A stretch of DNA of 64,000 nucleotides from an uncultured Gammaproteobacteria bacterium. GTDB taxonomy: Bacteria > Pseudomonadota > Gammaproteobacteria > CAYGNG01. How positions within the stretch are numbered: the first letter of the stretch is position 1; every line of letters begins with the position of its first letter. Below the pieces are notes generated by a model. It did not search any database, was not told where the DNA came from, and saw nothing but the letters and a program-made list of their open reading frames with translations. The stretch covers positions 2,590 through 66,589 of the forward strand of contig CAYGNG010000007.1 of NCBI GenBank assembly GCA_964351225.1, written 5' to 3'. The position numbers and the translations under genes were made by a program. Positions 6,435 to 52,087 of the stretch are shown here, in pieces.

Positions 6435-6545
6435 CTTTTTCCATCACTGTCCACTTGTTGCTGCTCAACATTTACAGCTGGGGCTGCTAAAAATTAAAAT
6501 AGCTGATAGAATGCTCCTTGTTAGTGAAGTTCGGACCCGCATCTT

Positions 6546-10121: not shown

Positions 10122-10136
10122 TATGGAATTCCTTAC

Positions 10137-10907: not shown

Positions 10908-11715
10908 GTTCTATCAACCTTTCTAAGAAAAAGGTAATATGCTTTCCATTTATTTCCGGAGCTGGCCAGCTCGTAACTCGATGAGCAAGCGTTTTAAAGG
11001 CAATACTTGATCGGGAACTTGGATATGCCTGAAAAACGGCTTTTTGCTTTTGAACGGCTTGCCGAAGATTCTCATCATAAGGAATCGAGCCAAGCAGATC
11101 TAAGGTTACATCTAAAAACCGATCGGTAGCTCGGAGCAATTTGGAAAACAAGGCACGCCCTTGCTTATCATTCGTCACCATATTGGATAAAATATGGAAT
11201 TTACTAACGCCATATTCCCGACTCATTATTTTCATCAAGGCATAGGCATCGGTAATGGAAGCCGGCTCATCGCACACCACCACCACAACCTCTTGTGCTG
11301 CGCGCATGAAAGTAATAACGTTGTCTGATATTCCTGCCGCCGTGTCAATCACAAGAATATCGAGATCATCTGTCAAATCATTAAAACTATTTATTAATCC
11401 AACGTGCTCATTAGCACTTAATTGCGTCATTATTTGGGTGCCTGATGCTGAAGGAATAATTTTAATGCCAAGTGGGCCTTGAAGAATCACATCCTGTAAA
11501 TCACTTTTCCCTTCAATAACATCTTGCAATGTTTTTTTAGGATGGATGCCTAATAACACATCCACATTAGCAAGTCCTAAGTCAGCATCCAGTAACAAAA
11601 CTTTCTGACCCAATGCGCCAAGTGCAATACTTAAATTAACTGAGACATTCGTCTTGCCTATACCGCCTTTCCCGCCCGATATCGCGATAACCCGCACCGG
11701 CTTAACCTTTGTCAT
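10897..11715 (-). CDS. fleN: Flagellar number regulator FleN/FlhG (MinD-like ATPase)
   Basis: A deviant Walker A motif (AISGGKGGIGKT) is present. The gene is positioned between flhF and fliA. Confidence 0.9.
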   Translation of the reverse strand: MTKVKPVRVIAISGGKGGIGKTNVSVNLSIALGALGQKVLLLDADLGLANVDVLLGIHPKKTLQDVIEGKSDLQDVILQGPLGIKIIPSASGTQIMTQLSANEHVGLINSFNDLTDDLDILVIDTAAGISDNVITFMRAAQEVVVVVCDEPASITDAYALMKIMSREYGVSKFHILSNMVTNDKQGRALFSKLLRATDRFLDVTLDLLGSIPYDENLRQAVQKQKAVFQAYPSSRSSIAFKTLAHRVTSWPAPEINGKHITFFLERLIEHAE

Positions 11716-11735
11716 AATATATACCCCGTTCTCGC

Positions 11736-12956: not shown

Positions 12957-12965
12957 AATTGAGCG

Positions 12966-15071
12966 TTATTGACCAACCGATCCCACCACTTTCAACTGCT
13001 TGTTCTCAGGAACCTCTTGGTACGACAACACATGTATATTCATCGAGCTCATCCTCACAAATCGAGCAAGTAAATTTCTCAATTGTGGCGCCACTAATAA
13101 CACAGCGGGAAATCCTGCCACCTCTTGCCGCTGAGCAATCTCCATGATGGATCTTTGTAGTTTCTCCACCAATCCCGGTTCAAGACCCGATCCATCTTCG
13201 CCACCCACCTGTATAGCAGTAAGCAAGATGCGTTCCAATTCTGGCATAAGGGTAATCACAGGCAATTCATTTGATAACCCATTGATACTTTGTATAATTA
13301 ATCTATTGAGTGCAACCCGAACCGCAGCGGTTAAGACGTCAGAATCACGACTTCTGGGGCTTGTCTGTGCCAAAGTTTCGGCGATGGTTCTGACGTCGGT
13401 AATTGGAATTTGTTCACGTAATAGATTTTGCATAACCTGAACGATGGTTCCTAATGGTAAATTATCTGATGTGACTTCATCGGCGAGCTTTGGTGAGCTC
13501 ACACGCAGCTTCTCTAACAGATGTTGGCCTTCCTCATGTCCAAAGAGATCGGCGGCATTAGCCTTCATTACGTGACTAATATGGGTTGCTATTACCGTGC
13601 TGGGATCGACGACGGTATAGCCAAGTGATTGTGCATAATCTTTTTGTGCGCTTGCTATCCATTTTGCCTTAAGGCCAAAAGCTGGATCTTTCGCATTAAT
13701 TCCCTCGATATCACCAAATACTTGTCCGGGATTAATTGCTAATAATTTATCAATATGGATTTCCGATTCACTAATGGTTACTCCCATTAACGTAATACGA
13801 TAATGGCTCGGTGTTAATTCAAGATTATCACGAATGTGGACTGGCGGGATCAGGAAGCCTAACTCTTGTGAGAGTTTACGCCTAATACCCTTTATTCTTT
13901 CCATCAGTTTACCGCCTTGTTGTTTATCAACCAATGGAATGAGTCTATAACCAACCTCAAGACCCAAGGTATCGACGGGCACAACATCATCCCAAGACAA
14001 TTCGGATTTGGATTTACTTATTAACTCTTGATTTTGAGTTTTCTCTATTTCCTTGTGTTGTACTTCTTGTAAAGATCTAAGTGCTTTTTCATCTCGACGC
14101 TTGCTTATAAAATATCCTGCCGCGCCAACGCCAGCTGCCAAACTCAAAAAAGCAAAATGTGGCATATGAGGGATCAAGCCCAATGTTCCTAAAATTGAAG
14201 CGGTGACAAATAAAGACTTCGGCTTATCAAAAATTTGAATTAGTACTTGCGCTGAAACATCTTGCGAGGAAGAAACGCGAGTAACCATAATCGCAGCAGC
14301 AATTGACAGCAATAGCGAAGGAATTTGTGCAACCAAGCCATCGCCAATGGTTAGCAGCGCATAATTCTGCACAGCATGACCTACTGTCATGCTGTGTTGG
14401 AACGTACCAATTAATACCCCCCCGATTAAATTTATAAATAATATCAGTAAGCCTGCTATTGCATCGCCCCGAACAAACTTACTCGCACCATCCATTGAGC
14501 CGTAAAAATCCGCTTCATCTCGAACTTCCGCCCTTCGCCCTTTTGCTTCTTCTGCAGAAATAAGGCCCGCATTGAGATCAGCATCAATTGCCATTTGCTT
14601 ACCTGGCATTGCATCTAGCGTAAAACGCGCACTGACTTCAGAGATCCTGCCGGCACCTTTGGTAATAACAACAAAATTGATGATAACCAAGATAGCAAAT
14701 ACAACGAGCCCGACGGCATAGTTACCGCCGATAACAACCGAACCAAATGACTCGACCACTTTTCCCGCTGCACTTGTTCCCATGTGACCATTCAATAAGA
14801 CAACTCGGGTAGAAGCAATGTTTAATGCCAAGCGCAGCAAGGTTGAAACCAATAAGACGGTTGGAAACACACCGAACTCCAGCGGGCGGTTAGCGTAAAC
14901 ACAGGTTAGTAACACAACTAAAGATAGCGCTATATTAAATGAAAACAACAAATCCAAAATAAAAGGCGGCAGTGGTAATATCATCATAGCGAGCAGTGTG
15001 ACGATCAATACAGGGATCCCAATGCCTAATTTGAATTTATCGAAAATATTATTTGACACTAATGGCATCAT
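12966..15071 (-). CDS. flhA: Flagellar export apparatus protein FlhA
   Basis: A 701-aa product with an N-terminal polytopic membrane domain and a cytoplasmic domain typical of FlhA. Confidence 0.95.
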   Translation of the reverse strand: MMPLVSNNIFDKFKLGIGIPVLIVTLLAMMILPLPPFILDLLFSFNIALSLVVLLTCVYANRPLEFGVFPTVLLVSTLLRLALNIASTRVVLLNGHMGTSAAGKVVESFGSVVIGGNYAVGLVVFAILVIINFVVITKGAGRISEVSARFTLDAMPGKQMAIDADLNAGLISAEEAKGRRAEVRDEADFYGSMDGASKFVRGDAIAGLLILFINLIGGVLIGTFQHSMTVGHAVQNYALLTIGDGLVAQIPSLLLSIAAAIMVTRVSSSQDVSAQVLIQIFDKPKSLFVTASILGTLGLIPHMPHFAFLSLAAGVGAAGYFISKRRDEKALRSLQEVQHKEIEKTQNQELISKSKSELSWDDVVPVDTLGLEVGYRLIPLVDKQQGGKLMERIKGIRRKLSQELGFLIPPVHIRDNLELTPSHYRITLMGVTISESEIHIDKLLAINPGQVFGDIEGINAKDPAFGLKAKWIASAQKDYAQSLGYTVVDPSTVIATHISHVMKANAADLFGHEEGQHLLEKLRVSSPKLADEVTSDNLPLGTIVQVMQNLLREQIPITDVRTIAETLAQTSPRSRDSDVLTAAVRVALNRLIIQSINGLSNELPVITLMPELERILLTAIQVGGEDGSGLEPGLVEKLQRSIMEIAQRQEVAGFPAVLLVAPQLRNLLARFVRMSSMNIHVLSYQEVPENKQLKVVGSVGQ

Positions 15072-15084
15072 AATTAAACCCCAC

Positions 15085-16215
15085 CTACCGCTTTAAGTCA
15101 TCTGGAATTGGCAAGTCTTTAACTGTTTTTGGCTTTTTCGCCTTGCCTGCTTTATACATTCGGATCTGAAAAACATAAGCTAAAACCTGAGCCACTGCGA
15201 TATATAAGCCATACGGAATCTCCGCATTCAATTTCGTGCTGTGATAAATAGCCCTGGCTAATGGTGGCGCTGCAAAAAGTTCAACTTGATGTGCTTGTGC
15301 AACTTTAATAATATGGAGCGCCATATGATCCACCCCTCGAGCAATCACAATAGGCGCCCCATCAGATAACTGATCATATTTTAGTGCAACCGCATAGTGT
15401 GTTGGATTGGTTATGATGACGTCTGCTTGAGGCACGTCAGCCATCATCTTACGTTTAGAAACCTCTTCTTGTAATTGACGAATCTTCTGCTTAACTTCTG
15501 GTCGGCCCTCAACCTCCTTGTACTCATCTCTTAGCTCTTGACGCGTCATTTTTAGCTGTTTAGCGTTATCCCACAGCTGAAATGGAACATCGATAGCTGC
15601 AATAATAAACAATGAAAGCGACAAAATTAAGGTTGTCCACCCCAAAATATGCAATGCTTCAGCAACAGCTGGTTGCAAGGCGTATTTAGACAAATCCATA
15701 ATATGCTTGTGTTTAATATACAGTAAAGCAGTTGCAAACAGTAAGATCACCACAAATTTCCCAAGCGCTTTAACCAGCTCCATAAGCCCTTTCAAAGAAA
15801 ACATTCGTTTAAATCCACTGATGGGATCCAGCCGTTCAAGTTTAAAATTAATAATTGAGAAATTAACTCTAATGCCACCAAGCAACCCTGCACCAATTAG
15901 TGAAGCAAAAACCAAAATAATTAATATAGGCAAGATTGCTATGAGCATATGGGATATCGCAAAATAAAAATCTTGTAACATACTGCTGGTGGTAAATAGC
16001 TCATCCCGCTCTATCGTAAAAATGCTACGCATCATTGCCAATAATTTTTCGCCAACTTCCACGCCAAACGACAACAACATAAGCATCCCGACAAGTACAA
16101 CAAATGCGGTATTTAACTCCTTGGAACGAGGGATCTGACCCTTGTCACGGGCTTCACTGCGTCGCTTCTCTGTCGGCTCTTCTGTTCGTTCTTGGCTGCT
16201 ATCTTCATCTGACAT
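15085..16215 (-). CDS. flhB: Flagellar export apparatus protein FlhB
   Basis: The N-terminus reads EEPTEKRRSEARDKGQIPRSKEL. The NPTH autocleavage motif is present (ITNPTHYAVALKYD). Confidence 0.95.
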   Translation of the reverse strand: MSDEDSSQERTEEPTEKRRSEARDKGQIPRSKELNTAFVVLVGMLMLLSFGVEVGEKLLAMMRSIFTIERDELFTTSSMLQDFYFAISHMLIAILPILIILVFASLIGAGLLGGIRVNFSIINFKLERLDPISGFKRMFSLKGLMELVKALGKFVVILLFATALLYIKHKHIMDLSKYALQPAVAEALHILGWTTLILSLSLFIIAAIDVPFQLWDNAKQLKMTRQELRDEYKEVEGRPEVKQKIRQLQEEVSKRKMMADVPQADVIITNPTHYAVALKYDQLSDGAPIVIARGVDHMALHIIKVAQAHQVELFAAPPLARAIYHSTKLNAEIPYGLYIAVAQVLAYVFQIRMYKAGKAKKPKTVKDLPIPDDLKR

Positions 16216-16997
16216 TACTTACCCCCGCCAGATAACCAAGCATCAATCGTCATAAACCCCATAGACAGCACGGCTTCAACTTGTGGAATGATATTTGATA
16301 ATAAGAAATAGACCACAAACAAGCCAATGACTAACGTGATAGGAAACCCGATGGTGAAAATATTTAACTGTGGCGCTGAACGGGTAAGAATGCCAAATGA
16401 AATATTAATAATGAGCAAAGCGACTATCGCCGGCAACGCCATAGAAATGGCTCCGGCAAACATCGAGGATCCCAGCAGGATGATATCCCAAAAATGATTT
16501 TTAGAGAAAACACTTTCTCCAATAGGAAAAGCCACAAAACTATTTGATATGAGTTTTATTAACTCTAAATGACCGTTAAATGCCAAAAATAGCAATGTCA
16601 CTATAATTAAATATAACTGGCTAATCAGCGGCACAGTCAGGCCACTTTGTGGGTCAACCATGGATGCAAATCCAAGACCGGCTTGCATGGCTATCAGTTG
16701 GGATCCAATCACAAAGGTCTGTAATAAAATCAAAAAAACAAACCCGATGGACAGTCCAATTAATAACTCTTGGCTAATAATAAAAAAACCATTTAAAGAA
16801 ATAATATCAATCTTAGGTATATTCGATATCGTCGACGAAACAGGAATGGTAACAATCATGCAAATAAGCAGACGCATTCGCGCTGGCAATAAACCTGAAT
16901 CAAAAACTGGTGCCACAAGCATCATCCCACCAACTCTTATCAATGGCAAAATTAGTAAATTAATCCATTTCATAAGGTCACTATATAATAAATCCAT
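16215..16997 (-). CDS. fliR: Flagellar export apparatus protein FliR
   Basis: A 260-aa polytopic membrane protein lying between fliQ and flhB. Confidence 0.9.
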   Translation of the reverse strand: MDLLYSDLMKWINLLILPLIRVGGMMLVAPVFDSGLLPARMRLLICMIVTIPVSSTISNIPKIDIISLNGFFIISQELLIGLSIGFVFLILLQTFVIGSQLIAMQAGLGFASMVDPQSGLTVPLISQLYLIIVTLLFLAFNGHLELIKLISNSFVAFPIGESVFSKNHFWDIILLGSSMFAGAISMALPAIVALLIINISFGILTRSAPQLNIFTIGFPITLVIGLFVVYFLLSNIIPQVEAVLSMGFMTIDAWLSGGGK

Positions 16998-17000
16998 CTA

Positions 17001-17270
17001 CTACCCTATTATCGATGGGATATCTAATATCAATTCACGGGTATATTCGACCATGGTTTTTAGCAACCACGGCCCCGTGATCAACATCGCTAGGAAAGTC
17101 ACAAGTAATCGCGGAACAAAGCTTAAACTCATTTCATTAATTTGTGTGGCCGCTTGAAACATGGCAACCAAAAGCCCAACAAGCAAACCCGGCAAAACCA
17201 GTATCGTCACCACCATGCAGGTGATGTATATTGCATGCCTAAATAAATCAACCATCATTTCTGGAGCCAT
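17001..17270 (-). CDS. fliQ: Flagellar export apparatus protein FliQ
   Basis: MAPEMMVDLFRHAIY...FQAATQINEMSLSFVPR is present. The start is trimmed to the ATG at 17270, giving 89 aa. The ORF-track N-terminal extension is spurious. Confidence 0.9.
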   Translation of the reverse strand: MAPEMMVDLFRHAIYITCMVVTILVLPGLLVGLLVAMFQAATQINEMSLSFVPRLLVTFLAMLITGPWLLKTMVEYTRELILDIPSIIG

Positions 17271-17278
17271 CTTACACC

Positions 17279-18019
17279 TCAAAATCCAAAGCTTGCTGCC
17301 AATGTGCCCATCACTAAAGCCCAACCATCTACTAATACAAACAGCATAACTTTAAATGGAAGCGAGATAATCAAAGGAGATAACATCATCATCCCCATCG
17401 CCATCAAAACACTTGCTACCACCAAATCAATAATAAGAAATGGGATAAATAATACAAAACCAATTTGAAAAGCGGTCTTTAGTTCGCTTGTCACGAATGC
17501 GGGCATGATCACGGTTAATGGATATTCTTCTATTGTTACATCTGCCTTAAGACCAGCCATTGAACGGAACAGTGACAAATCATCTTTCCGTATTTGCTTT
17601 AGCATGAATTGTCTTATTGGGATCTCTGCTTTTTTTAATGCTTCTGCTTGCGATATTTTATCCATCAGCAAAGGTTGTATTGCTGTTCTGTTTATTTCAT
17701 TTAAAACAGGGGTCATAATAAATATTGATAGGAACAAAGACATTCCAACCAATATTTGATTGGTTGGTGTTTGTGGCATGCCAACTGCCTGCCTTAACAT
17801 AGACAGCACAATGATGATTCGGGTAAATGAAGTCATTAACATTAATGCAGCAGGCAATAACGTCAATGCCGTCATCGCCATTAAAACTTGAATATTCAAG
17901 CTGTAGCTTTCACCGCCTGCCGTTTTTGTTACGGTCATTGCTGTCAGCTTTCCAAAATCTGCTGAAGCCAAATCAGGAAGAATTAATAGTATGCATAAAA
18001 AAACCAAATTTCGCTTCAT
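17279..18019 (-). CDS. fliP: Flagellar export apparatus protein FliP
   Basis: A signal peptide is followed by the conserved FliP core ([18 protein letters not shown]). Confidence 0.95.
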
Positions 18020-18450
18020 GATTTTTCCCCACGCGAACAGGCTTTATGTAAAATGTCTGTAAAAGTGCTTTTTTTTAAAGAAGCTGGAATATCAGGTTCT
18101 GCTAGCGGTTCGTCTAATATCATTAATGTGCGAATAGTCCCTGGCGCAATCCCAACCAACAACTGTTTCTCACCGACTTGTATTAAAATTACTTTTTCTC
18201 TTACGCCAATATTAAGACCAGACACCACTTTCAGATTGGTTTTCCCGTGAATTGAAAATTGCTGAATTTTTTTTAAAAAAAAGCCAAAAACAAGAACCAG
18301 CACAATCACAAAGCACAGAGCAAATGCTATTTTATAATAGTCCGGACCAACAAATTCTATGGACCCAGTGGTCGCCACCGCCGAGCTTGCATATGCCTCT
18401 TTTAATGAGAAAAATGCTATTGCCATTAACGTCCCACTTGTTCTTAACAT
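18016..18450 (-). CDS. fliO: Flagellar protein FliO
   Basis: A small single-TM protein placed between fliN and fliP. Its C-terminus resembles FliO. Confidence 0.7.
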
Positions 18451-18457
18451 AACACCC

Positions 18458-18832
18458 TCATTTCAATTTTTTAATCCGCTCAGCCGTGCTGATTACATCT
18501 GTCAGTCGTATGGCAAATTTATCATGTACGATGACCACTTCACCGTGCGCTATTAAAGTACCATTAATTTTAATATCCAATGGTTCTCCGGCTAACCTAT
18601 CCAGCTCCACTACCGATCCTTGATTTAGCTGCAATAGCTTGCGAATGCTGATTTGTGCTCTACCAATCTCCACCGATAACAACACCGAGATATCCAAAAT
18701 CACTTCGAGATCCGCTTCATTAGGAGGGGGGCTTTTCTCCTCTACTAAATTATCAAACTCAGCTGTCGAAGCCGCATCACTGGATCCTGGATTTACCGAT
18801 TCATCATTCATCAAATCACTCCTCTTCAGCAC
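18458..18832 (-). CDS. fliN: Flagellar motor switch protein FliN
   Basis: The C-terminal SpoA domain reads SVVELDRLAGEPLDIKINGTLIAHGEVVIV. Confidence 0.9.
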   Translation of the reverse strand: MLKRSDLMNDESVNPGSSDAASTAEFDNLVEEKSPPPNEADLEVILDISVLLSVEIGRAQISIRKLLQLNQGSVVELDRLAGEPLDIKINGTLIAHGEVVIVHDKFAIRLTDVISTAERIKKLK

Positions 18833-18851
18833 GCATTGCTATTTATCCGCG

Positions 18852-19856
18852 CTAATCTTTGCCAACCCTGCCAAGAATTTTAATTGCACATGTTTTATTT
18901 GAAACGCCAAATCTCGCACGAAATGTCGGGATACCATTTGCCAACACGGTCACATGCTCTTTCATATCAACACCAATAATATCGCCAGCTTTCAGATCCA
19001 ATATGTCGTTAAAAGTAATCTGTGTGCTTGCCAGATCGCCGGTAACCTCTAATAAAGCATCGAATATTTCTTCTTGCAGCGCACTAGACCAACGCTCATT
19101 CACATCTTCTTTATCTGCTGTCACACCAATTTCTAGCGCGGAACGAATCGGCTCTATCATTGAGTATGGCATTGCAATATGAATTTCATCTGAAAATTTA
19201 TCTACGCTAATATCGAAATGCACTACAACAACCATCTCATTTGGTGAGATGACATTTACTAAGTTTGGGTTGATTTCATGCCCTTGCTCTTCACATTTTA
19301 TAGGAATAATCGGATCCCAAGCGCTCATCAAATCCTGCAGTATCATCTCAAGGACTAATCTGCAAATTCTAAGCTCTACTTGAGTGTATTCTTTCTTATT
19401 CCGGATATCGCCTATATCGAGAGGACCGCCAAACAAGCTGTTCACCAACCCCACAACAAACTTGGTGCCAAAAATACACAAAGAAGTACCGATAAGTGGT
19501 CTCATCCTGAATAAATTAAGCGAACACGGTGTGTCTAGACTTGAAAAATATTCGGAGCATTTTAGTGTGATAATTTCTTTTCCTGATACTTCAACTGCAC
19601 GACGCAATAAATTCATCAAGCTGGTTCGCAAGCTTCTTGCAAAGCGCTCATTGATTGCCACCAGACCAGACAAACGACCGCTTGCTTCTCTTTGCTGAGC
19701 GGCAAAATCATAGTAGCGAAAACCATCATCGGTAAGCTTATGATCGTCTTTTGTGTCAACTTTTTCGTCTGCCACACCTGTCAGCAGCGTATCGATTTCG
19801 TCTTGAGACAAAAACTCATTGCTTTTACCCGAATTGCTGCCGCCTGGATCCGTCAT
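18852..19856 (-). CDS. fliM: Flagellar motor switch protein FliM
   Basis: The N-terminal CheY-binding motif is LSQDEIDTLL. The product is 334 aa, a typical FliM length. Confidence 0.9.
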   Translation of the reverse strand: MTDPGGSNSGKSNEFLSQDEIDTLLTGVADEKVDTKDDHKLTDDGFRYYDFAAQQREASGRLSGLVAINERFARSLRTSLMNLLRRAVEVSGKEIITLKCSEYFSSLDTPCSLNLFRMRPLIGTSLCIFGTKFVVGLVNSLFGGPLDIGDIRNKKEYTQVELRICRLVLEMILQDLMSAWDPIIPIKCEEQGHEINPNLVNVISPNEMVVVVHFDISVDKFSDEIHIAMPYSMIEPIRSALEIGVTADKEDVNERWSSALQEEIFDALLEVTGDLASTQITFNDILDLKAGDIIGVDMKEHVTVLANGIPTFRARFGVSNKTCAIKILGRVGKD

Positions 19857-41286: not shown

Positions 41287-43785
41287 ATGGCTACTAATTT
41301 GATATTAATTGATGGTTCTTTAACAGAAGAAATCCGCGTCGCGTGCGTTAAATCTAAAGATCCCTACCACGCAGATAATCCACATATTCTTGGTAATCTC
41401 GATATTGAGCGCCCAGGCCGAGAACAAAAAAAAGCAAATATCTACAGTGCAACCATTACTCATATAGAGCACAGCCTAGATGCCGCATTCGTTAACTTTG
41501 GCTCTGCCCGCCATGGCTTTTTACCTTTAAAAGAAGTTGCACCCAATTACTATGCCTCGCCGGGTAACCAAAACGAATCCGCCAGATCGGAATTGGTCGT
41601 TGGGCAAAAAGTTTTAGTGCAAGTCGAAAAAGAAGAGCGTGGCAACAAAGGCGCTGCTTTAACAACATACATCACCCTTGCCGGTTGCTATTTAGTTTTG
41701 ATGCCAAATAATCCCGAAGCCGGTGGCATTTCCAGACGCATTGAAGGTGACGAACGCTCAGAACTGAGAGACATTATTACCGCGCTACCCCTCCCAGAAG
41801 GCATGGGTTTAATTGTCAGGACAGCTGGCGAAGGGCGAAAACCAGAAGAATTAGAATGGGATCTCAACGTGTTGCTGCGCCAATGGGAAGAAATTACTGA
41901 AGCCTTTGAAAACAGACCCAATCCTTCCCTCATTTACCAAGAAAGTGACGTTATTATCCGCACCATCCGCGATTATTTTCGCGAAGAAATTCAAGAAATA
42001 ATTATTGCTGATCCAGAAGTTTATCAGCGCGCATTGGATCATGTTAAACATGTTCGCCCTCAATACGCGAACCGAGTCAAACTCTATCAAGAAAAGATTC
42101 CTTTATTCATTCGTCACCGAGTTGAATCACAAATTGAAACCGCCTTTCAAAGAGAAGTTCGCCTACCCTCAGGTGGTGCTATTGTTATTGATCACACAGA
42201 AGCCATGGTATGCATTGACATTAACTCTTCTCGAGCCACAAAAGGTGGTGACATTGAAGAAACGGCATTACAAACTAATTTAGAAGCAGCAGAAGAAATT
42301 GCTCGCCAATTACGCTTGCGAGACATTGGCGGATTAATTGTTATCGACTTTATTGATATGACGCCTTCTCGTAATCAACGCGATGTTGAAATTCGCTTGC
42401 GAGAAGCCTTAAAAGTTGATCGTGCGCGAGTTCAAGTCGGCCGCATCTCACGGTTTGGTCTGCTGGAAATGTCCAGACAACGTTTGCGCCCTTCTATTGC
42501 TGAAGCCATTCAAATGGCTTGCCCGCGTTGCCATGGCCAAGGCAGCATTCGCAATATCAAATCACTCTCTTTATCCATCATTCGACTCATCGAAGAAAAT
42601 GCCATCAATAAACAAGGCACAGTTGAAATCCAAATACAGATCCCACTTGATCTTTCTACCTATCTGCTAAACGAAAAGCGGCACCTCCTTACCGCGATAG
42701 AGCAAAAAACAAATGTCAACATCATGGTTATCCCTAACCCTGGGTTGCAAACCCCAGACTATCGCCTCAAGCGCTTAAAGAAAGAAGATCTCCCTAGCTC
42801 TGGAAAACAGCTTTCAAGCTATGAACATCGAAACTATATCGAGGAAGATTTAATTTCTACCGCTTTTGAAGAAACCGAAGATGCGCCAAGAGAAAAACCA
42901 GCGGTTTGCCAAAACTCGACGCCTTATACAGAAGCCGCATCTTTAGGAAAACACAACAGCAGCAACGCAATCCCCCATCCTCAAACCAGACAATCGGGTT
43001 TACTCCGTCGATTATTTTCTGGATTATTGGGAAGACCTTGCCAAACTCAAGAAAACAAATCCGAACCGAGTAGCCAACCAAGCAAACCAAAACCGCGGCA
43101 ACAACATAACAAACCCATCCGCAGCAGCAGCAACAAGTATCATGATGCTTCCTCTAGTAATGAAGAGTACGATAATAATCGTCGCTCGAATAATAACAAT
43201 AATCGCCGCGGCCAATCTAGAAAAATTGGGCACCGCACTACTAATCCTGTCTCCGCCGACAAAGCCACCACGGCGGCTGGCACCCCGGATGAACCAAATC
43301 AAACCGCTTCCCACAGTCAAAAGCAACCTCGCCAGAGATCTTACAACAACAGAGGACAACAAGACGCCAGAGGTAGCCGTCACAGCAATAGCAATAGCAA
43401 CCGTAATCAACGCGCACGCACAACCGGTAACAACAGTCATCGCAATCGAAGCGCTAGCAGTGACAATCGCAATAAAAACACGAACCCCGAGACACAAAAT
43501 AATAACCCGTACGATCCCTACGCCGGCATTCAACCGGTTACTGAAAAATTTGAAGAAATTTCAGTTTACCGCAACCAAGTGATGTCGAGTGCGGATAGTC
43601 AACAACCAAATGAAAGCGCTAGCATCAAACGCGAGCCTCCTAAAGACACAACGACTGCCGTCACTAAACCACCATCAACGGAACCAGAAACGGGCAAGCA
43701 AGAGAAAGCGAAATCTTTTGCAAAGCGCCATGCCAAACGTCGCCGCGGCCACCTCAGAACAAAAATGAAGGAAAACAACGAGTAA
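41287..43785 (+). CDS. rne: Ribonuclease E
   Basis: The N-terminal catalytic domain carries an S1 fold and a Zn-link (CPRCHGQGSIR). The C-terminal 330 aa are low-complexity and Arg/Asn/Ser/Pro-rich, typical of an RNase E scaffold. Confidence 0.9.
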   Translation: MATNLILIDGSLTEEIRVACVKSKDPYHADNPHILGNLDIERPGREQKKANIYSATITHIEHSLDAAFVNFGSARHGFLPLKEVAPNYYASPGNQNESARSELVVGQKVLVQVEKEERGNKGAALTTYITLAGCYLVLMPNNPEAGGISRRIEGDERSELRDIITALPLPEGMGLIVRTAGEGRKPEELEWDLNVLLRQWEEITEAFENRPNPSLIYQESDVIIRTIRDYFREEIQEIIIADPEVYQRALDHVKHVRPQYANRVKLYQEKIPLFIRHRVESQIETAFQREVRLPSGGAIVIDHTEAMVCIDINSSRATKGGDIEETALQTNLEAAEEIARQLRLRDIGGLIVIDFIDMTPSRNQRDVEIRLREALKVDRARVQVGRISRFGLLEMSRQRLRPSIAEAIQMACPRCHGQGSIRNIKSLSLSIIRLIEENAINKQGTVEIQIQIPLDLSTYLLNEKRHLLTAIEQKTNVNIMVIPNPGLQTPDYRLKRLKKEDLPSSGKQLSSYEHRNYIEEDLISTAFEETEDAPREKPAVCQNSTPYTEAASLGKHNSSNAIPHPQTRQSGLLRRLFSGLLGRPCQTQENKSEPSSQPSKPKPRQQHNKPIRSSSNKYHDASSSNEEYDNNRRSNNNNNRRGQSRKIGHRTTNPVSADKATTAAGTPDEPNQTASHSQKQPRQRSYNNRGQQDARGSRHSNSNSNRNQRARTTGNNSHRNRSASSDNRNKNTNPETQNNNPYDPYAGIQPVTEKFEEISVYRNQVMSSADSQQPNESASIKREPPKDTTTAVTKPPSTEPETGKQEKAKSFAKRHAKRRRGHLRTKMKENNE

Positions 43786-43795
43786 TAATGTGGTG

Positions 43796-43837
43796 AGCGA
43801 AGCAATCCACACAATGGATTGCTTCGCTTTTATACTC
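43796..43837 (+). terminator. Rho-independent terminator of rne
   Basis: A perfect 14-bp stem (agcgaagcaatcca / tggattgcttcgct) with a 5-nt loop sits 11 nt after the rne stop, followed by tttat. Confidence 0.6.
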
Positions 43838-43861
43838 GCGGTGATGCAACGGAAAATTATT

Positions 43862-44134
43862 ATGGTAACTGATTTATTTGGGGCACTGGCTGTAATTACC
43901 TCCCTTATTTCTTTATGCCCTCAAATTCACAAAGCCTTTATCACCAAATCCTGCCGTGATTTATCCTGGGGAATGATAATCTTATTTATCGCTTCTGCTA
44001 TCAGCTGGCTTGGTTATGGGATCCTTTCAAATAGCTGGCCAGTATGGCTCACTAACGGCGTAGGACTTGTGATTACAATTATCTTAGCTGGATTAAAATT
44101 TCATTATGATCGACTGGACAGCAACAAAATATAA
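43862..44134 (+). CDS. SemiSWEET-like (PQ-loop) three-TM transporter, about 90 aa
   Basis: Three predicted TM helices are present, with a PQ motif (SLCPQIHKAF) in TM1. The start is trimmed to 43862 because the upstream part of the listed ORF is occupied by the rne terminator hairpin. Confidence 0.55.
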   Translation: MVTDLFGALAVITSLISLCPQIHKAFITKSCRDLSWGMIILFIASAISWLGYGILSNSWPVWLTNGVGLVITIILAGLKFHYDRLDSNKI

Positions 44135-44741
44135 CGCCATCTTATGCTTATCAGGGGGACACATTCCCAGCACGATGATTCGCAATTACTATTCCACTTA
44201 TCCACTGATTGCGACGGATGGTGCTGCCAATTATTTAAAAAAACACAACATCCCCATATCGATCATCATTGGAGACTTAGACTCAATAGATCGAAAAATA
44301 ACTCTAAATGAAAAAATAGTGCACATCAAAGATCAAAACACCACGGATTTTGAAAAAGCACTGCTCTATATTGAAGAACACCACCTATCCCCTACGCTGA
44401 TATTTGGTATGCAAGGCGGTGAAATCGATCATGCCCTTAATAACTTTCACTGCCTAGCCAAATTTAGCAAACGACTCACTCTGGTTTTTTGTGATGAGGA
44501 AAAAGAAAACAGCTGCAAATATGGTAAATTGATTTTCGATCAGATCGCGATCAGTGACAGAAAAGGTCATAAAATTTCCATACTCCCTTATCCGATGTGT
44601 GTGGTTTCAACAAGCGGATTACGCTGGCAATTAAATTGCTCACGACTAGCCATCGCGGAAAAAACCAGCGCAAGAAATGAAATTATCAGTGAGTACGCCA
44701 CTATCCGTATCCATGAAGGCAGCGCGCTCGTCATCGCTTAA
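44106..44741 (+). CDS. Thiamine pyrophosphokinase
   Basis: TPK signatures are present: AILCLSGG...IATDGAANYL, GDLDS, TDFEKAL, GGEIDH. It overlaps the SemiSWEET gene by 29 nt. Confidence 0.7.
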   Translation: MIDWTATKYNAILCLSGGHIPSTMIRNYYSTYPLIATDGAANYLKKHNIPISIIIGDLDSIDRKITLNEKIVHIKDQNTTDFEKALLYIEEHHLSPTLIFGMQGGEIDHALNNFHCLAKFSKRLTLVFCDEEKENSCKYGKLIFDQIAISDRKGHKISILPYPMCVVSTSGLRWQLNCSRLAIAEKTSARNEIISEYATIRIHEGSALVIA

Positions 44742-46154
44742 TTAGGGATTTTTTGCTGAAGCGCTCTCTGTTACTTCGCTTTCCTCCAATTCCTCTTTTT
44801 GTTGCAATTCAGATAATACGTCATCAAATAAGCCTAATAGCAAGTGACCATTTGGCTTTTTCCTTATTACTTCTTCTTTATTGCGAATTAGAGTGCTTTT
44901 TTTCGTTTTTTCAGCCGCAACAATTTGGCGGATAGTAAATGAAAGAAAGTCAAAACTTTTTTTATCGAGATTAGGATCTCTATTTTTAAGTTTCTTCTTA
45001 ATATCCGTAAGCGATCCCAGCTCGGCTTCATCGTCGAGTTTGCGTTTAAAAATACCGAGCTCGGAGAGTCGTTTTGCTTCCTCTTTTTGATCGGCTTGTG
45101 CCGCTAATCGCGCTTGGGCTTGAGTATAATCAACCACTCCTCTTATTTCCTGTGGTGAGCAGGTTGAATAAATACTATTTAGAATAAAAAGATCCTCTAA
45201 CAATGCTTTCCGACGGTCATCTGTCACACTCAACAGATGAGATACAATGCTGGGCCCATCAGCTGGGTGCAATGAAAAATTCCCACCAAAATAACACAGC
45301 GCGCGGATTGCATCGAGGTCCGGTCGATTTCCAGCAATATAAGCAAAAATCTCACGATATAATGCGGTTTTGCCATCAACTAATTCATTCGGATCCGTAA
45401 GACCTTTTTCACTAATACGCACAGGAATACTGTCGCCAAATAGCGTGGGCGCACCGCGCAAGAGCTCCATCTCATGCAGTGAATGCGTATTAGCACTCCT
45501 GCTGTTTGACACAAGCTGTGCAGACTGGCCAAGTTTAAATTCCGCCTCTTGTTGCAAGCCTTTTTCAATCTGTTTTCCTTTAGAGCGACGATCGGCAACA
45601 CCGTACTTTTGGCAGATATCGTTCGCTTGATCAGGGCGATTGGCTGCGTGTAACAAATCGACAACATTCGCGCCATCTTTCCCGACACGAGAGAATCCCG
45701 CACCATAATCATGCAAATAACCCAAAAGATAAAATTTTCTTTGTTTAGCGGCTAAATTTGCTGGTTGTTCCCGGCAACGATCCACTGAGTAAAAATTGAA
45801 ATCAACACCACGCTGATATAAACAAGCAAATAATTTATTGATTATCGCGACTGTCGACCGATGGGGAAGCAAGGGCGATCGATGAATAACGTAGTCTAAA
45901 ATATCGGCATCAGCAATTATCTGCTTGTTTTCTTGCAGTATCCAATCAAGTACCGGCAAAAGCTTGCTGGTCACGCCCTCAGATAGCGCTACTGCTCGAT
46001 CGTTAGCGCCAGCCTCTTCTAAAAATTGATCCGCGTACTGTTCGACAAGGTAACGAACATCGGGAACCGATATGCGGTACCCTGAAGCAATCAACTGATT
46101 GGGATCAAAAGAATTTTCGCCGGTAACTAACCCATTGATAATGGCTTTAAACAT
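44742..46154 (-). CDS. Hypothetical protein, 470 aa, with a Glu-rich C-terminal tail
   Basis: No domain is recognisable. The C-terminus reads LSELQQKEELEESEVTESASAKNP. The stop abuts the TPK stop with a 0-bp spacer. Confidence 0.5.
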   Translation of the reverse strand: MFKAIINGLVTGENSFDPNQLIASGYRISVPDVRYLVEQYADQFLEEAGANDRAVALSEGVTSKLLPVLDWILQENKQIIADADILDYVIHRSPLLPHRSTVAIINKLFACLYQRGVDFNFYSVDRCREQPANLAAKQRKFYLLGYLHDYGAGFSRVGKDGANVVDLLHAANRPDQANDICQKYGVADRRSKGKQIEKGLQQEAEFKLGQSAQLVSNSRSANTHSLHEMELLRGAPTLFGDSIPVRISEKGLTDPNELVDGKTALYREIFAYIAGNRPDLDAIRALCYFGGNFSLHPADGPSIVSHLLSVTDDRRKALLEDLFILNSIYSTCSPQEIRGVVDYTQAQARLAAQADQKEEAKRLSELGIFKRKLDDEAELGSLTDIKKKLKNRDPNLDKKSFDFLSFTIRQIVAAEKTKKSTLIRNKEEVIRKKPNGHLLLGLFDDVLSELQQKEELEESEVTESASAKNP

Positions 46155-46204: not shown

Positions 46205-46888
46205 TCAATGGGCTTTGGGATCCGCTGGGTAGCTGGTTAGCTCCATTTCATAAGCTCGCGTGATCTCATTATTGTTACTATCCGAATATTTCATTTTAGA
46301 ATAATACAGCCAGCGCTCATGCTCATTTGAAGTGACATGTGACTCACTTTGAACATAGCTATCCAGCAAATTAAGTAGCGATTCCGTGTACTCATAATAT
46401 TCGACTGAGCTAATGCATTCTTCTGGATTGTCACCATCATCACAGATAACCATCATGGCATCAGAAGCGTTTATCCTCTTCGCCCTATCTTGCAATGCTG
46501 TGAGAATTTGCGACTTATTTTCATGGCTAATTTGGTTGTCTTGCAACATTGAGATAGCCTGAGACGATTTCAATAAGTGCGCCATCGCGGTATTCTTTGC
46601 AGCAGAAGGTGTTAATATTACATAAAAAAACAAAAATCCTAATGAGAAGATCGATACGACCGAGCTTATTCTGAATGGCAGTCCGACATGTTTTTGCAAT
46701 GCACCGTACCATGCGCTTGCCAAACTCCAAAAGAATAAAATCAACACCACCCAGATCACTTTAGTATGTGTTTGGTGTCTGGTGTTGGTTGTACAAAAAA
46801 TGATTGCCAACACGGGTTGTATGACTAAGGCATAAATAACCGCTATGGCGATAAAGATCACAAGAAGCATTCCGAGGATACCAGACAT
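46205..46888 (-). CDS. Hypothetical membrane protein
   Basis: Three N-terminal TM helices are followed by a 130-aa soluble domain. Confidence 0.5.
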   Translation of the reverse strand: MSGILGMLLVIFIAIAVIYALVIQPVLAIIFCTTNTRHQTHTKVIWVVLILFFWSLASAWYGALQKHVGLPFRISSVVSIFSLGFLFFYVILTPSAAKNTAMAHLLKSSQAISMLQDNQISHENKSQILTALQDRAKRINASDAMMVICDDGDNPEECISSVEYYEYTESLLNLLDSYVQSESHVTSNEHERWLYYSKMKYSDSNNNEITRAYEMELTSYPADPKAH

Positions 46889-50275: not shown

Positions 50276-51439
50276 CTAATTGACGACATTAAAAACTTTT
50301 TTAAGGTATGCTAAGTAAGAAACATCGCGACACATGGTTTTTTCGGGCGAATCCGACAGCTTGGCTACTGGTTGACCATTGCACGCGACCATTTTAATGA
50401 CGATTTGTAAGGGGGTCACACCCAAATCATTGGTCAAATTAGTTCCTATTCCAAACACGGGGCGCGCGCGATCCTTAAAATACGCATAGAGTTTTAAAGC
50501 CAGCGGAAAATCCAATGAATCGCTAAAAGCTAATATCTTGGTTTTAGGATCGATACGCATTTTCTCATAATGAGCAATTAGCCTATCACCCCAAACAAAA
50601 GGATCCCCAGAATCATGCCGAGCACCATCGAATAACTTACAAAAATACAAGTCAAAATCATTTAAAAAAGCATCCAAGCCTATCACGTCCGACAAAGCGA
50701 TCCCCAACTCGCCGCGATACTCCTGCGCCCATTTTTCAAATGCAAATTTTTGACTCAACGCTAATCGAGGCCCCAGCACTTGGCATGCCTCAAGATATTC
50801 ATGTGCCATTGTTCCAATAGCACGTAACCCCAATTTTTTTGCCAACAGAATGTTACTGGTTCCTGATAGATTTTGCGCTAATTCTTTTTGCAAAACCGTC
50901 AACATATGCTCTTGCCACGCTTGTGAGTAACGCCTTCTTGTCCCAAAGTCAGAGAAGGTAAACCCTTCACGCAAAGCAGAATCTTTAACGAAGTGAATTT
51001 TATCGTATAATAACTCATCCCCCTGCTGCTTAAGCAACTTTGCATCAAACTGCTGATGATAGATCTCACAGACTAATGCCAATACCGGAACCTCAAAAAG
51101 AATGGTGTGTAGCCACGGACCTTTAATCACAACATCAAATTCTGGTGCGGTGCTGACTGTAATAAAATCTCGATTAAAACGAAATAAGCGCAAAAACTCA
51201 ATAAAATCACTCTTGAAAAAAGAGTACTGCTGCAGGTAAAGCAATTCCTCACGCTTAAATGACAAAGTACATAACTCATCAATTGCGTGATTAATTTCTT
51301 TTACAAATGGCAGCAAATTGATATCTTTCGAACGACATTTAAAACGATATTCCGCCATAGCCGAAGGAAACTGATGCAATACCGTTTGCATCATCGTAAG
51401 CTTATACAAATCTGTATCTAATAATGATTTAATAATCAT
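50276..51439 (-). CDS. pncB: Nicotinate phosphoribosyltransferase
   Basis: LLDTDLYKLTMMQ, FGTRRR and KLSDSPEKT motifs are present. Confidence 0.9.
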   Translation of the reverse strand: MIIKSLLDTDLYKLTMMQTVLHQFPSAMAEYRFKCRSKDINLLPFVKEINHAIDELCTLSFKREELLYLQQYSFFKSDFIEFLRLFRFNRDFITVSTAPEFDVVIKGPWLHTILFEVPVLALVCEIYHQQFDAKLLKQQGDELLYDKIHFVKDSALREGFTFSDFGTRRRYSQAWQEHMLTVLQKELAQNLSGTSNILLAKKLGLRAIGTMAHEYLEACQVLGPRLALSQKFAFEKWAQEYRGELGIALSDVIGLDAFLNDFDLYFCKLFDGARHDSGDPFVWGDRLIAHYEKMRIDPKTKILAFSDSLDFPLALKLYAYFKDRARPVFGIGTNLTNDLGVTPLQIVIKMVACNGQPVAKLSDSPEKTMCRDVSYLAYLKKVFNVVN

Positions 51440-51445
51440 TTTGCA

Positions 51446-52087
51446 CTATCCTTTCAGATCATGAGCACTCGCTATGAATAAGGCCCCTTGGCTCTTCATT
51501 AAGCGAATGGCTTCCTCGGTTGATGCCGTGGCAACCCCTCGGGTTGCAGCCAAATTAACAATCACCTGAAACTGTGCATTGAGTAACTGCAGCACGGTCA
51601 TTTTAACGCAATAATCCGTAGCCAACCCCCCAACAATCACCCACGTCACTTCTCTGGCATGCAGAAACTCTATCACGCCCGTGCTCATTCGCTCAGCAAA
51701 ATCATGAAAACAAGCACCATAGGGGTGCATATCTGGTTCAACGCCCTTCCATACAAAGAAATCGTATGCCGTGACTGGTGGTAACCCCGCAAGTAATTCA
51801 AAGCCTTTGGTTCCGGTCATGGCATGACTCGGCCAATAAACATCGACATTTGCTCCGGCGATCGGACTAAAAACCGGATGGGCGCTATCGCTTTGCCAAA
51901 TAGCATGCGGGCAATGTGCATCTTTAGAACCCACCCGATATTGCGCAAAATGCGCTTGCGCATTTAACTCATCAACAATCCGATGCCCTTCTGCTACCGG
52001 CAATTCATCCGGGCAAATTGGGGTGAAGGTATTCTGCGCATCGACATCGAAACTGGCCACGGTGGCCTTGTCGAGGATGTGTTTCAT
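51446..52087 (-). CDS. pncA: Nicotinamidase (isochorismatase family)
   Basis: An isochorismatase-like fold is present, with Asp, Lys and Cys (ATDYCV) residues. It lies next to pncB. Confidence 0.75.
   Translation of the reverse strand: MKHILDKATVASFDVDAQNTFTPICPDELPVAEGHRIVDELNAQAHFAQYRVGSKDAHCPHAIWQSDSAHPVFSPIAGANVDVYWPSHAMTGTKGFELLAGLPPVTAYDFFVWKGVEPDMHPYGACFHDFAERMSTGVIEFLHAREVTWVIVGGLATDYCVKMTVLQLLNAQFQVIVNLAATRGVATASTEEAIRLMKSQGALFIASAHDLKG

What the first reader, a model, noticed from the sequence alone, without database searches (positions are those of the whole stretch)
43862..44741. Translationally coupled SemiSWEET-like mini-transporter and thiamine pyrophosphokinase gene pair
A roughly 90-aa three-TM protein with a PQ-loop motif (LCPQIHKAF) overlaps the start of a clear thiamine pyrophosphokinase (GDLDS, TDFEKAL, GGEIDH) by 29 nt. 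TPK phosphorylates imported thiamine, so the coupling suggests the SemiSWEET-like protein is the thiamine or vitamin importer of a salvage module. In bacteria that role is normally assigned to PnuT-type or ThiT-type carriers, and bacterial SemiSWEET substrates are mostly unknown. The pair sits directly behind the rne terminator and is followed convergently by an unknown gene with no spacer.
Basis: partly seen in the sequence, partly recalled or inferred. Interest (0 to 1): 0.55.

Follow-up and report, generated by a model that had tools for sequence, protein, structure and literature searches.

The report
SemiSWEET–kinase vitamin B1 salvage cassette
A tiny three-helix membrane protein of the "SemiSWEET sugar transporter" family overlaps a thiamine pyrophosphokinase gene, and the same pair recurs in other bacterial lineages, so it is most likely a minimal vitamin B1 uptake-and-trapping module, which would give a bacterial SemiSWEET a physiological role.

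Summary
ORF 43862-44134 (+, 90 aa) is a SemiSWEET/PQ-loop protein. It overlaps by 29 nt a genuine thiamine pyrophosphokinase (TPK) at 44106-44741, directly behind the rne terminator hairpin.

- I found 13 distinct loci, including the window, in which a SemiSWEET gene lies immediately upstream of TPK on the same strand. They carry labels of Legionella, Rickettsiales, Midichloriaceae, Holosporales, Chlamydiales and Opitutales.
- In 10 of the 13 loci the two genes overlap. In one locus they are 1 nt apart.
- In the remaining two lineages the two proteins are fused in frame.
- In 7 loci a TPP riboswitch scoring above Rfam's gathering score precedes the operon. In six of them it abuts the SemiSWEET start codon.
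- The window protein's closest homologue (50% identity) also has a TPP aptamer at its start codon.
- All 13 linked TPKs fall in one clade of 17 among 84 TPKs.

The window copy itself has no riboswitch.

The most likely mechanism is facilitated diffusion of thiamine through a SemiSWEET dimer, with trapping as TPP by the kinase. This is the PnuT-TPK logic with a half-size carrier.

Prior art in the searched library is one sentence noting the neighbourhood in Legionella cherrii (PMC5972207). Verdict: a new variant of a known kind, and directly testable.

The parts
43795..43835 (+). Intrinsic terminator of rne: a 15-bp GC-rich stem (43795-43809 and 43815-43829), a 5-nt loop and a UUUUAU tail. It leaves only about 26 nt before the SemiSWEET start codon.
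   Evidence: RNA fold gives -29.7 kcal/mol and z = -4.82, and 0 of 200 shuffles fold as well. Sequence.
43831..43836 (+). Possible -10 hexamer TATACT overlapping the terminator tail. With the weak -35 CACACA at 43808-43813 and a 17-nt spacer, it would give the pair its own promoter. This is inference only.
   Evidence: Read from the sequence. The consensus scan did not report it. Unverified.
43862..44134 (+). SemiSWEET-family gene (90 aa, three transmembrane helices, PQ motif at residues 20-21, pocket residues W49 and N65). It is the predicted thiamine facilitator.
   Evidence: Pfam PF04193 and PF03083 exceed their gathering scores. The AF2 model has pLDDT 93.5 with helices 2-28, 36-55 and 59-87. 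Foldseek gives TM 0.87/0.95 and rmsd 1.0 A to SemiSWEET 4RNG_A. It aligns to LbSemiSWEET 4QNC at E 1e-10 with W and N conserved. Orthologous loci show TPK linkage and TPP riboswitches.
44106..44134 (+). 29-nt overlap of the SemiSWEET 3' end with the TPK 5' end, in different frames. This is consistent with translational coupling. The Midichloriaceae locus has an overlap of the same length.
   Evidence: ORF coordinates. L085 has 3736-4029 and 4001-4654.
44106..44741 (+). Thiamine pyrophosphokinase (ThiN/TPK, 211 aa) with catalytic and B1-binding domains. It is the predicted cytoplasmic trap converting thiamine to TPP.
   Evidence: TIGR01378 scores 120.4 bits against a cut-off of 76.4. PF04263 and PF04265 both hit. 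PDB relatives are TPKs 3IHK and 3LM8. It sits in the SemiSWEET-linked TPK clade.

Best explanation
The two overlapping genes form a self-contained vitamin B1 salvage cassette.

- **Carrier.** The 90-aa SemiSWEET protomer probably assembles as a homodimer of triple-helix bundles, as solved SemiSWEETs do. It would act as an energy-independent carrier that lets free thiamine cross the inner membrane down its gradient. This step is inferred.
- **Trap.** The co-translated TPK converts incoming thiamine directly to thiamine pyrophosphate. The enzyme family assignment is shown; the activity is inferred. The charged product cannot leave, so the inward gradient is maintained (metabolic trapping).
- **Topology.** The positive-inside rule and the natural fusions place the SemiSWEET C-terminus, and therefore the kinase, in the cytoplasm.
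- **Regulation.** In many relatives the operon is shut off by a TPP riboswitch whose 3' end covers the ribosome-binding site and start codon. In this window the riboswitch is absent. The pair is presumably expressed constitutively, either from a weak promoter overlapping the rne terminator or by terminator read-through.
For: - **Family identity of both proteins.**
- **Conserved adjacency.** A SemiSWEET lies immediately upstream of TPK in 9 of 80 TPK loci from species-representative genomes, and the HMM hit nowhere else in those flanks. The same arrangement occurs in metagenomic loci L091 and L097 and in the fusion loci L001/L002.
- **Gene spacing.** Ten loci overlap by 4-41 nt, one has a 1-nt gap and two are fused.
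- **Fusions.** P0034 is a SemiSWEET-TPK fusion of 319 aa found on at least 4 contigs from at least 3 samples. P0153/L004, labelled Holosporales, is fused independently.
- **Riboswitches.** RF00059 scores above the gathering score of 54.3 in seven loci: L063 (77.2), L097 (72.1), L023 (71.6), L024 (68.4), L074 (61.7), L009 (59.3) and L082 (57.2). In six of them the aptamer ends at the SemiSWEET start codon. In L024 the GGAGGA Shine-Dalgarno sequence lies inside the aptamer's 3' end.
- **Closest homologue.** P0002 (50% identity) has a complete TPP aptamer abutting its ATG (49.3 bits, E 4.5e-9).
- **Co-inheritance.** All 13 linked TPKs fall in one clade of 17 among 84 TPKs.
- **Precedent.** The PnuT-TPK system is experimentally shown to work by facilitated diffusion, and its authors propose trapping by phosphorylation (PMC5749112).
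- **Need for TPP.** The window encodes a TPP-dependent E1/transketolase-type enzyme.
Against: - No transport or binding data exist for any member of this clade.
- The window locus has no TPP riboswitch.
- The window protein and its closest relative deviate from the main linked group at several signature columns (L41 instead of N, S/T45 instead of C, P60 in the window).
- The sugar-pocket residues W49 and N65 are retained, so sequence alone does not exclude a sugar substrate.
- It scores below NCBIfam's SemiSWEET_2 cut-off (59 bits against 80).
- Some close SemiSWEET homologues on short contigs (P0006, P0008, P0010) show neither TPK nor a riboswitch.
Confidence: 0.75

Rival explanations
1. The SemiSWEET imports a different thiamine-related compound, not thiamine itself. 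Candidates are a precursor such as HMP or the thiazole moiety, a thiamine analogue, or a phosphorylated vitamer taken from a host cell.
For: TPP riboswitches also control precursor transporters in other bacteria (established knowledge of the TPP regulon). Most of the named lineages carrying the pair are host-associated or intracellular (record titles), where phosphorylated vitamers are available.
Against: The invariant partner is TPK, whose substrate is unphosphorylated, intact thiamine. No thiD, thiM or thiE-type gene was found next to the pair in the flanks examined. Fusion to TPK argues that the kinase substrate is what passes the pore. The PnuT precedent rejects TMP and TPP.
Confidence: 0.1
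2. It is an ordinary sugar-transporting SemiSWEET, and its position next to TPK is a genomic accident without functional meaning.
For: Characterised SemiSWEETs carry sugars. The W and N pocket residues are conserved. The closest solved structures are sugar SemiSWEETs.
Against: Adjacency with overlap recurs in 13 loci across several phyla while the outer neighbours differ. There are two independent fusions, seven TPP riboswitches and a shared TPK clade. None of this is expected by accident.
Confidence: 0.03
3. The SemiSWEET is not primarily a carrier. It serves as a membrane anchor or allosteric partner that localises or regulates TPK, or it works in efflux and homeostasis of thiamine rather than uptake.
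For: Fusion proteins tether TPK to the membrane. A uniporter is in principle bidirectional, as the PnuT data show.
Against: The transport hallmarks are invariant or nearly so in the linked clade: the PQ hinge, W49, N65 and the three-helix bundle. This would not be needed for an anchor. Repression by TPP, the usual logic of riboswitches sited over the start codon, fits acquisition and not export.
Confidence: 0.07

Closest known systems
PnuT-TPK thiamine uptake system (Pnu family, for example Shewanella woodyi PnuT; PMC5749112)
   Same: A carrier gene is co-localised with a thiamine kinase. PnuT shows energy-independent facilitated diffusion, and the authors propose trapping by phosphorylation. 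PnuT genes are classically TPP-riboswitch regulated. The Pnu fold is described as a distant, full-length relative of SWEET.
   Different: PnuT has a 7-TM core in one chain, whereas this protein is a 3-TM protomer of 90 aa. There is no Pfam NMN_transporter hit. A profile of the linked clade finds SemiSWEET, SWEET and cystinosin in the PDB but not PnuC. This is functional analogy, not membership.
Bacterial SemiSWEET sugar carriers (LbSemiSWEET 4QNC, TySemiSWEET 4RNG, EcSemiSWEET 4X5M, BjSemiSWEET 9KAX)
   Same: Length, three-helix bundle, PQ motif and the W/N pocket pair are shared. Foldseek TM reaches 0.95 and rmsd 1.0 A. Sequence identity is about 32-33%.
   Different: The genomic context points to thiamine and not sugar: TPK overlap or fusion and TPP riboswitches. 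The main linked group also carries its own signature columns (T13, N41, C45, S46, T56, non-Pro at 60). The window and L003 proteins lack three of these.
SemiSWEET next to TPK in Legionella cherrii, noted by Jia et al. 2018 (PMC5972207)
   Same: It is the same gene pair in a gammaproteobacterium. The authors suggested that SemiSWEETs may carry non-sugar metabolites.
   Different: That paper gives a single neighbourhood in one species. It mentions no riboswitch, fusions, cross-phylum conservation or trapping mechanism. The window organism is not a Legionella: its TPK is 33-38% identical to those of the three Legionella loci, and its RNase E catalytic domain is at most 66% identical to any other protein in the collection.
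ThiT (ECF S-component) and ThiBPQ (ABC) thiamine importers
   Same: They have the same physiological role of thiamine acquisition and are often in the TPP regulon (established knowledge).
   Different: Those are ATP-driven primary transporters with unrelated folds. Here no ATPase or energising module is adjacent, and the driving force would be the kinase reaction.

Membership tests
SemiSWEET (SWEET/PQ-loop/MtN3 superfamily) | Single triple-helix bundle of about 80-100 aa with three transmembrane helices | tested here: met
   The protein is 90 aa. The AF2 model has helices 2-28, 36-55 and 59-87 with pLDDT 93.5. Foldseek gives TM 0.87/0.95 to 4RNG_A.
SemiSWEET (SWEET/PQ-loop/MtN3 superfamily) | PQ motif in TM1 and family profile match above the curated threshold | tested here: met
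   P20-Q21 is present. PF04193 scores 35.9 (cut-off 22) and PF03083 scores 29.0 (cut-off 23.7).
SemiSWEET (SWEET/PQ-loop/MtN3 superfamily) | NCBIfam SemiSWEET subfamily models (SemiSWEET_1, _2, _3) at the curated cut-off | tested here: not met
   The best match is SemiSWEET_2 at 59.1 bits against a cut-off of 80. The protein is a divergent member: only 27 of 1.84 billion representatives match at E <= 1e-10.
SemiSWEET (SWEET/PQ-loop/MtN3 superfamily) | Conserved Trp/Asn pair lining the substrate pocket | tested here: met
   In the HMMER alignment to LbSemiSWEET 4QNC, W49 and N65 match the conserved Trp and Asn that I take to be the pocket pair. W is present in 14 of 14 linked sequences and N in 13 of 14.
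SemiSWEET (SWEET/PQ-loop/MtN3 superfamily) | Homodimer forms the translocation pathway; sugar is the substrate | not testable with these tools
   This needs biochemistry. The genomic context argues against sugar as the physiological substrate.
Thiamine pyrophosphokinase (ThiN/TPK, EC 2.7.6.2) | Equivalog model TIGR01378 above cut-off, with catalytic and B1-binding domains | tested here: met
   TIGR01378 scores 120.4 bits against a cut-off of 76.4. PF04263 scores 67.6 bits and PF04265 scores 28.8 bits, both above gathering.
Thiamine pyrophosphokinase (ThiN/TPK, EC 2.7.6.2) | Conserved motifs GDLDS, DQ..TDFEK and GG..DH | tested here: met
   IIGDLDS, DQNTTDFEKAL and GGEIDH are present. Several of their residues (G56, D57, D59, Q77, D81, F82, K84, G104, G105) are invariant and others nearly so in the alignment of 11 TPKs.
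Thiamine pyrophosphokinase (ThiN/TPK, EC 2.7.6.2) | Catalyses thiamine + ATP -> TPP + AMP | not testable with these tools
   An enzyme assay is required.
Pnu-type vitamin transporter (PnuT) | 7-TM core (two three-helix repeats plus a linker helix) and an NMN_transporter profile | tested here: not met
   Only 3 TM helices are present. There is no Pnu Pfam hit and no PnuC hit with the clade profile at E <= 10.
Pnu-type vitamin transporter (PnuT) | Operon coupling to the cognate vitamin kinase | tested here: met
   The window shows a 29-nt overlap with TPK. The pairing is conserved in 13 loci. This is a working analogy only.
TPP-riboswitch (THI element) regulon | RF00059 aptamer in the 5' leader of the operon | tested here: not met
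   The window has no Rfam hit at gathering over the full 64 kb. No TPP hit appears at E <= 10 in 43600-44200. The leader is only 76 nt and is occupied by the rne terminator. The aptamer is present in 7 of 13 orthologous loci.

The most novel reading that the evidence does not exclude
SemiSWEET and TPK may form a physical 2:2 complex, since both are dimeric families in solved structures. Thiamine leaving the pore would be handed directly to the kinase. This would be a vectorial, group-translocation-like vitamin uptake machine built from the smallest known carrier protomer. The natural in-frame fusions would be its covalent form, and the 4-41-nt overlaps would enforce stoichiometric co-translation. 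It would also define a previously unrecognised class of bacterial thiamine transporter concentrated in intracellular and host-associated bacteria.
Probability: 0.25. Interest if true: 0.8.

Novelty: new variant of a known kind. Interest (0 to 1): 0.62.

Why it matters
The physiological role of bacterial SemiSWEETs is an acknowledged open question. The 2018 survey states that nothing is known about it.

A clade tied to thiamine by three independent lines of genomic evidence would give these proteins a concrete and easily testable substrate. The three lines are overlap with or fusion to TPK, TPP riboswitches and a shared TPK lineage. It would extend the SWEET fold from sugars to a cationic vitamin.

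It would also add a new carrier type to the list of bacterial B1 importers used in metabolic reconstruction and auxotrophy prediction. This matters most for Legionella, Rickettsiales, Holosporales and Chlamydiales genomes, where the pair is found.

At 90 residues per protomer it would be an attractive minimal model for vitamin recognition. The transporter-kinase fusions offer a natural system for studying metabolic trapping.

Tried and rejected
- **Word-indexed homologue search with the SemiSWEET.** It returned only the self hit. The exhaustive HMMER search was needed.
- **Look-up of P0001's contig.** Not on record.
- **Genome-contig scan with the single TPK sequence.** No relative was found. 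The scan with the TPK alignment worked.
- **The search for related loci with SemiSWEET alignments A1 and A3.** A narrower alignment gave only one metagenome locus. As a result, a SemiSWEET-centred census could not be done, and the co-occurrence statistics are TPK-centred.
- **Synteny after rne.** I first took the gene upstream of the closest homologue (L003) to be rne. BLASTP shows no similarity, so that synteny claim was dropped. The nearest rne relatives of the window lack the pair downstream.
- **PnuT next to the other TPKs.** I looked at the neighbours of ten of the 71 TPK loci without a SemiSWEET (all Kapaibacteria/Ignavibacteria-type lineages), expecting PnuT. They were unrelated genes: Peripla_BP_2, TPR proteins, a K+ channel and others.
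- **Ancestral half of Pnu transporters.** The clade profile does not detect PnuC.
- **Remnant riboswitch in the window leader.** None was found.
- **Horizontal transfer from base composition.** GC is about 0.39-0.40 in the pair against about 0.44-0.46 nearby, which is too small a difference to conclude anything.
- **Literature.** Searches for SemiSWEET with TPP riboswitch, PnuT with SemiSWEET, and PQ-loop with thiamine and riboswitch returned no papers. The SWEET and PQ loop variants returned only unrelated papers.

Full report
**1. What is in the window**

ORF 43862..44134 (+) encodes a 90-aa protein, MVTDLFGALAVITSLISLCPQIHKAF....
- It exceeds the Pfam gathering scores for PQ-loop (PF04193, 35.9 bits) and MtN3_slv (PF03083, 29.0 bits).
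- Its best NCBIfam match is SemiSWEET_2, but below the curated cut-off (59.1 bits against 80).
- An AlphaFold2 model built on 41 homologues is confident (pLDDT 93.5) and shows three helices at residues 2-28, 36-55 and 59-87.
- The model superposes on the SemiSWEET of Thermodesulfovibrio yellowstonii (4RNG_A) with TM 0.87/0.95 and rmsd 1.0 A, and on LbSemiSWEET 4QNC with TM 0.83/0.92.
- The PQ hinge (P20-Q21) and the Trp/Asn pair (W49, N65) are conserved. I take this pair to be the pocket residues of solved SemiSWEETs.

ORF 44106..44741 (+) encodes a 211-aa thiamine pyrophosphokinase.
- It scores 120.4 bits against TIGR01378 (cut-off 76.4).
- Both Pfam TPK domains hit.
- The motifs GDLDS, TDFEKAL and GGEIDH are present.

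The two ORFs overlap by 29 nt in different frames. ATG 44106 is the only start codon upstream of the conserved TPK N-terminus.

Upstream, rne ends at 43785 and is followed by a strong hairpin at 43795-43829 with a U-rich tail (-29.7 kcal/mol, z = -4.8). Downstream, a convergent 470-aa ORF with no family match starts at the next base after the TPK stop.

One correction applies. The deposited protein (114 aa, from GTG 43790) starts inside the terminator. The homologue alignment supports ATG 43862.

**2. Is the pairing meaningful? Evidence from elsewhere**

The SemiSWEET is divergent. An exhaustive HMMER scan of 1.84 billion representatives gave 1,260 hits, but only 27 at E <= 1e-10. The nearest (P0002) is 50% identical. 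The TPK is divergent too, with its nearest relative at 42% identity.

Four independent lines tie the pair to thiamine.

(a) Conserved adjacency.
- A scan of one genome per GTDB species with a TPK alignment returned 80 loci.
- A SemiSWEET HMM run over all ORFs in these loci hit in nine of them.
- Every hit lies immediately upstream of TPK on the same strand, and there are no hits anywhere else in the roughly 0.5 Mb of flanks.
- The nine record titles name Holosporales, Candidatus Midichloriaceae, Rickettsiales, Chlamydiales, Legionella saoudiensis, Legionella bozemanae, Opitutales, an uncultured bacterium, and a MAG whose title reads 'Rickettsia typhi'.
- Two more metagenomic loci show the same arrangement: L091 (the locus of P0003) and L097.
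- With the fusion locus L001/L002 and the window itself, this makes 13 distinct loci.
- Ten pairs overlap by 4-41 nt and one has a 1-nt gap. The Midichloriaceae pair overlaps by 29 nt, as in the window.
- The outer neighbours differ from locus to locus: rpsA, PNPase, yceG, an MFS gene, typA and others. Only the pair is conserved.

(b) Gene fusion.
- P0034 (319 aa) is an in-frame SemiSWEET-TPK protein. It was found on at least four contigs from at least three samples, so it is not a sequencing artefact.
- The Holosporales TPK (P0153/L004) is also a single reading frame with the SemiSWEET.
- In both fusions the kinase follows TM3.
- In the window protein the TM1-TM2 loop (K24, K29, R32) and the C-terminal tail (K79, R84, K89) are the positively charged segments. 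This predicts an N-out, C-in topology and places TPK in the cytoplasm. This is inference from the positive-inside rule.

(c) TPP riboswitches. Rfam RF00059 matches above the gathering score of 54.3 lie at the head of the operon in seven loci:

| Locus | Bits |
|---|---|
| L063 | 77.2 |
| L097 | 72.1 |
| L023 | 71.6 |
| L024 | 68.4 |
| L074 | 61.7 |
| L009 | 59.3 |
| L082 | 57.2 |

- In six of them the aptamer ends at or over the SemiSWEET start codon.
- In L. saoudiensis the GGAGGA ribosome-binding site is part of the aptamer's 3' end. This is the usual arrangement for translational repression by TPP.
- In L074 the riboswitch precedes a 425-aa membrane ORF that lies upstream of the pair.
- The window protein's closest homologue (P0002, L003) has a full-length aptamer abutting its ATG. 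It scores 49.3 bits and E 4.5e-9, and lacks only the variable P3a stem.

(d) Co-inheritance. In a neighbour-joining tree of 84 TPKs, all 13 SemiSWEET-linked TPKs fall in one clade of 17. The four unlinked members are three Puniceicoccales MAGs and one uncultured Legionella MAG. In that Legionella MAG a 63-aa two-TM ORF occupies the SemiSWEET position.

**3. What the window lacks**

- No TPP riboswitch is present. A gathering-level scan of all 64 kb found nothing, and a permissive scan of 43600-44200 gave no TPP match.
- The 76-nt gap after rne is filled by the terminator.
- Expression therefore depends on one of two things: read-through, or a promoter overlapping the terminator tail. A possible TATACT lies at 43831-43836, but it is my reading only and was not reported.
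- Six of the 13 loci lack the riboswitch, so constitutive versions are common.
- The window protein and P0002 differ from the main linked group at several signature columns (L41 for N, S/T45 for C, P60 in the window). They form a divergent sub-branch.
- The organism is a deeply branching gammaproteobacterium. Its RNase E catalytic domain is at most 66% identical to any other protein in the collection.
- It carries a flagellar cluster, nicotinate salvage genes (pncA, pncB) and a TPP-dependent E1/transketolase-type enzyme.
- Whether it can make thiamine de novo cannot be decided from this window.

**4. Mechanism**

The best-supported model is facilitated diffusion plus metabolic trapping. A SemiSWEET dimer equilibrates free thiamine across the inner membrane, and TPK converts it to TPP.
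- Shown: the identity of both protein families and the genomic coupling.
- Inferred: the substrate, the dimer and the direction of net flux.
- Precedent: PnuT was demonstrated in proteoliposomes to be a gradient-driven thiamine facilitator that rejects TMP and TPP. Its genes are often co-localised with the cognate kinases (PMC5749112).
- Membership: the clade is nevertheless not a Pnu member. It has 3 TM helices and not 7, gives no Pnu profile hit, and its profile finds SemiSWEET, SWEET and cystinosin in the PDB but not PnuC.

The rivals are each less likely, because the invariant partner is a kinase specific for intact, unphosphorylated thiamine.
- Import of a precursor or another vitamer.
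- A sugar carrier placed next to TPK by accident.
- A membrane anchor or exporter role.

**5. Novelty**

In 7.7 million PMC papers and bioRxiv preprints, the only link found is one sentence and a figure panel in Jia et al. 2018. It notes TPK next to a SemiSWEET in Legionella cherrii and suggests that SemiSWEETs may carry secondary metabolites.

No paper combines SemiSWEET or PQ-loop with the TPP riboswitch or with PnuT, and the broader SWEET searches returned only unrelated papers. Subscription-only literature and curated databases (TCDB, RegPrecise, SEED) could not be checked.

I classify this as a new variant of a known kind: a known fold and a known uptake logic, with a predicted new substrate class and regulation for SemiSWEETs.

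**6. Verdict**

- Confidence that thiamine is the physiological substrate is about 0.75.
- Interest is 0.62. The window locus is one riboswitch-less member of the clade. The clade gives a direct experimental handle on the unresolved physiological role of bacterial SemiSWEETs.

Noticed in passing
window 44742-46154 (-) and 46205-46888 (-): Two consecutive ORFs have no Pfam or NCBIfam match. One is 470 aa with no hydrophobic segments. The other is 227 aa with three N-terminal hydrophobic segments. The 470-aa ORF's stop codon directly abuts the TPK stop codon with a 0-nt spacer, so neither convergent gene has room for a terminator.
   Followed up: partly
window 43790-43861: The database version of the SemiSWEET (P0001, 114 aa) starts at GTG 43790, inside the rne terminator hairpin. 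Homologue alignment indicates ATG 43862, so the deposited start is probably mis-called.
   Followed up: yes
L074 1020-2597: A TPP riboswitch (61.7 bits) controls a 425-aa polytopic membrane ORF with at least 8 hydrophobic segments and no Pfam family. It sits upstream of the SemiSWEET-TPK pair in the same direction. It is a second membrane protein of unknown function in the thiamine regulon.
   Followed up: partly
L043 about 2600-3000 (uncultured Legionella MAG): The TPK belongs to the SemiSWEET-linked clade. It is preceded not by a SemiSWEET but by a 63-aa two-TM ORF and a long, near-perfect inverted repeat (arms of roughly 55-70 nt). This may be a replacement or disruption of the carrier gene.
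   Followed up: no
L096 260-893: Two SemiSWEET genes lie in tandem with an 8-nt overlap (P0010 and its neighbour). This suggests a heterodimeric SemiSWEET. No TPK or riboswitch is present on this 1.2-kb contig.
   Followed up: no
L004 2689-3615 (Holosporales MAG): The fused SemiSWEET-TPK reading frame has no ATG, GTG or TTG near the SemiSWEET N-terminus. It opens within the last codons of rpsA. A non-canonical start (ATA, ATC or ATT) or an assembly error is possible.
   Followed up: no
window 42900-43800: The C-terminal half of rne is a long low-complexity region rich in N, S, R and Q. It shows a very strong AT skew (up to 0.44) and a negative GC skew.
   Followed up: no
window 2077-4299 (-), 4925-19856, 50276-52087 (-): The window also carries a TPP-dependent E1/transketolase-type fusion enzyme, a flagellar export and motor cluster (fliK-like, motB, an SRP54-type GTPase that may be flhF, flhA, flhB, fliM), and a pncB-pncA nicotinate salvage pair.
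   Followed up: partly
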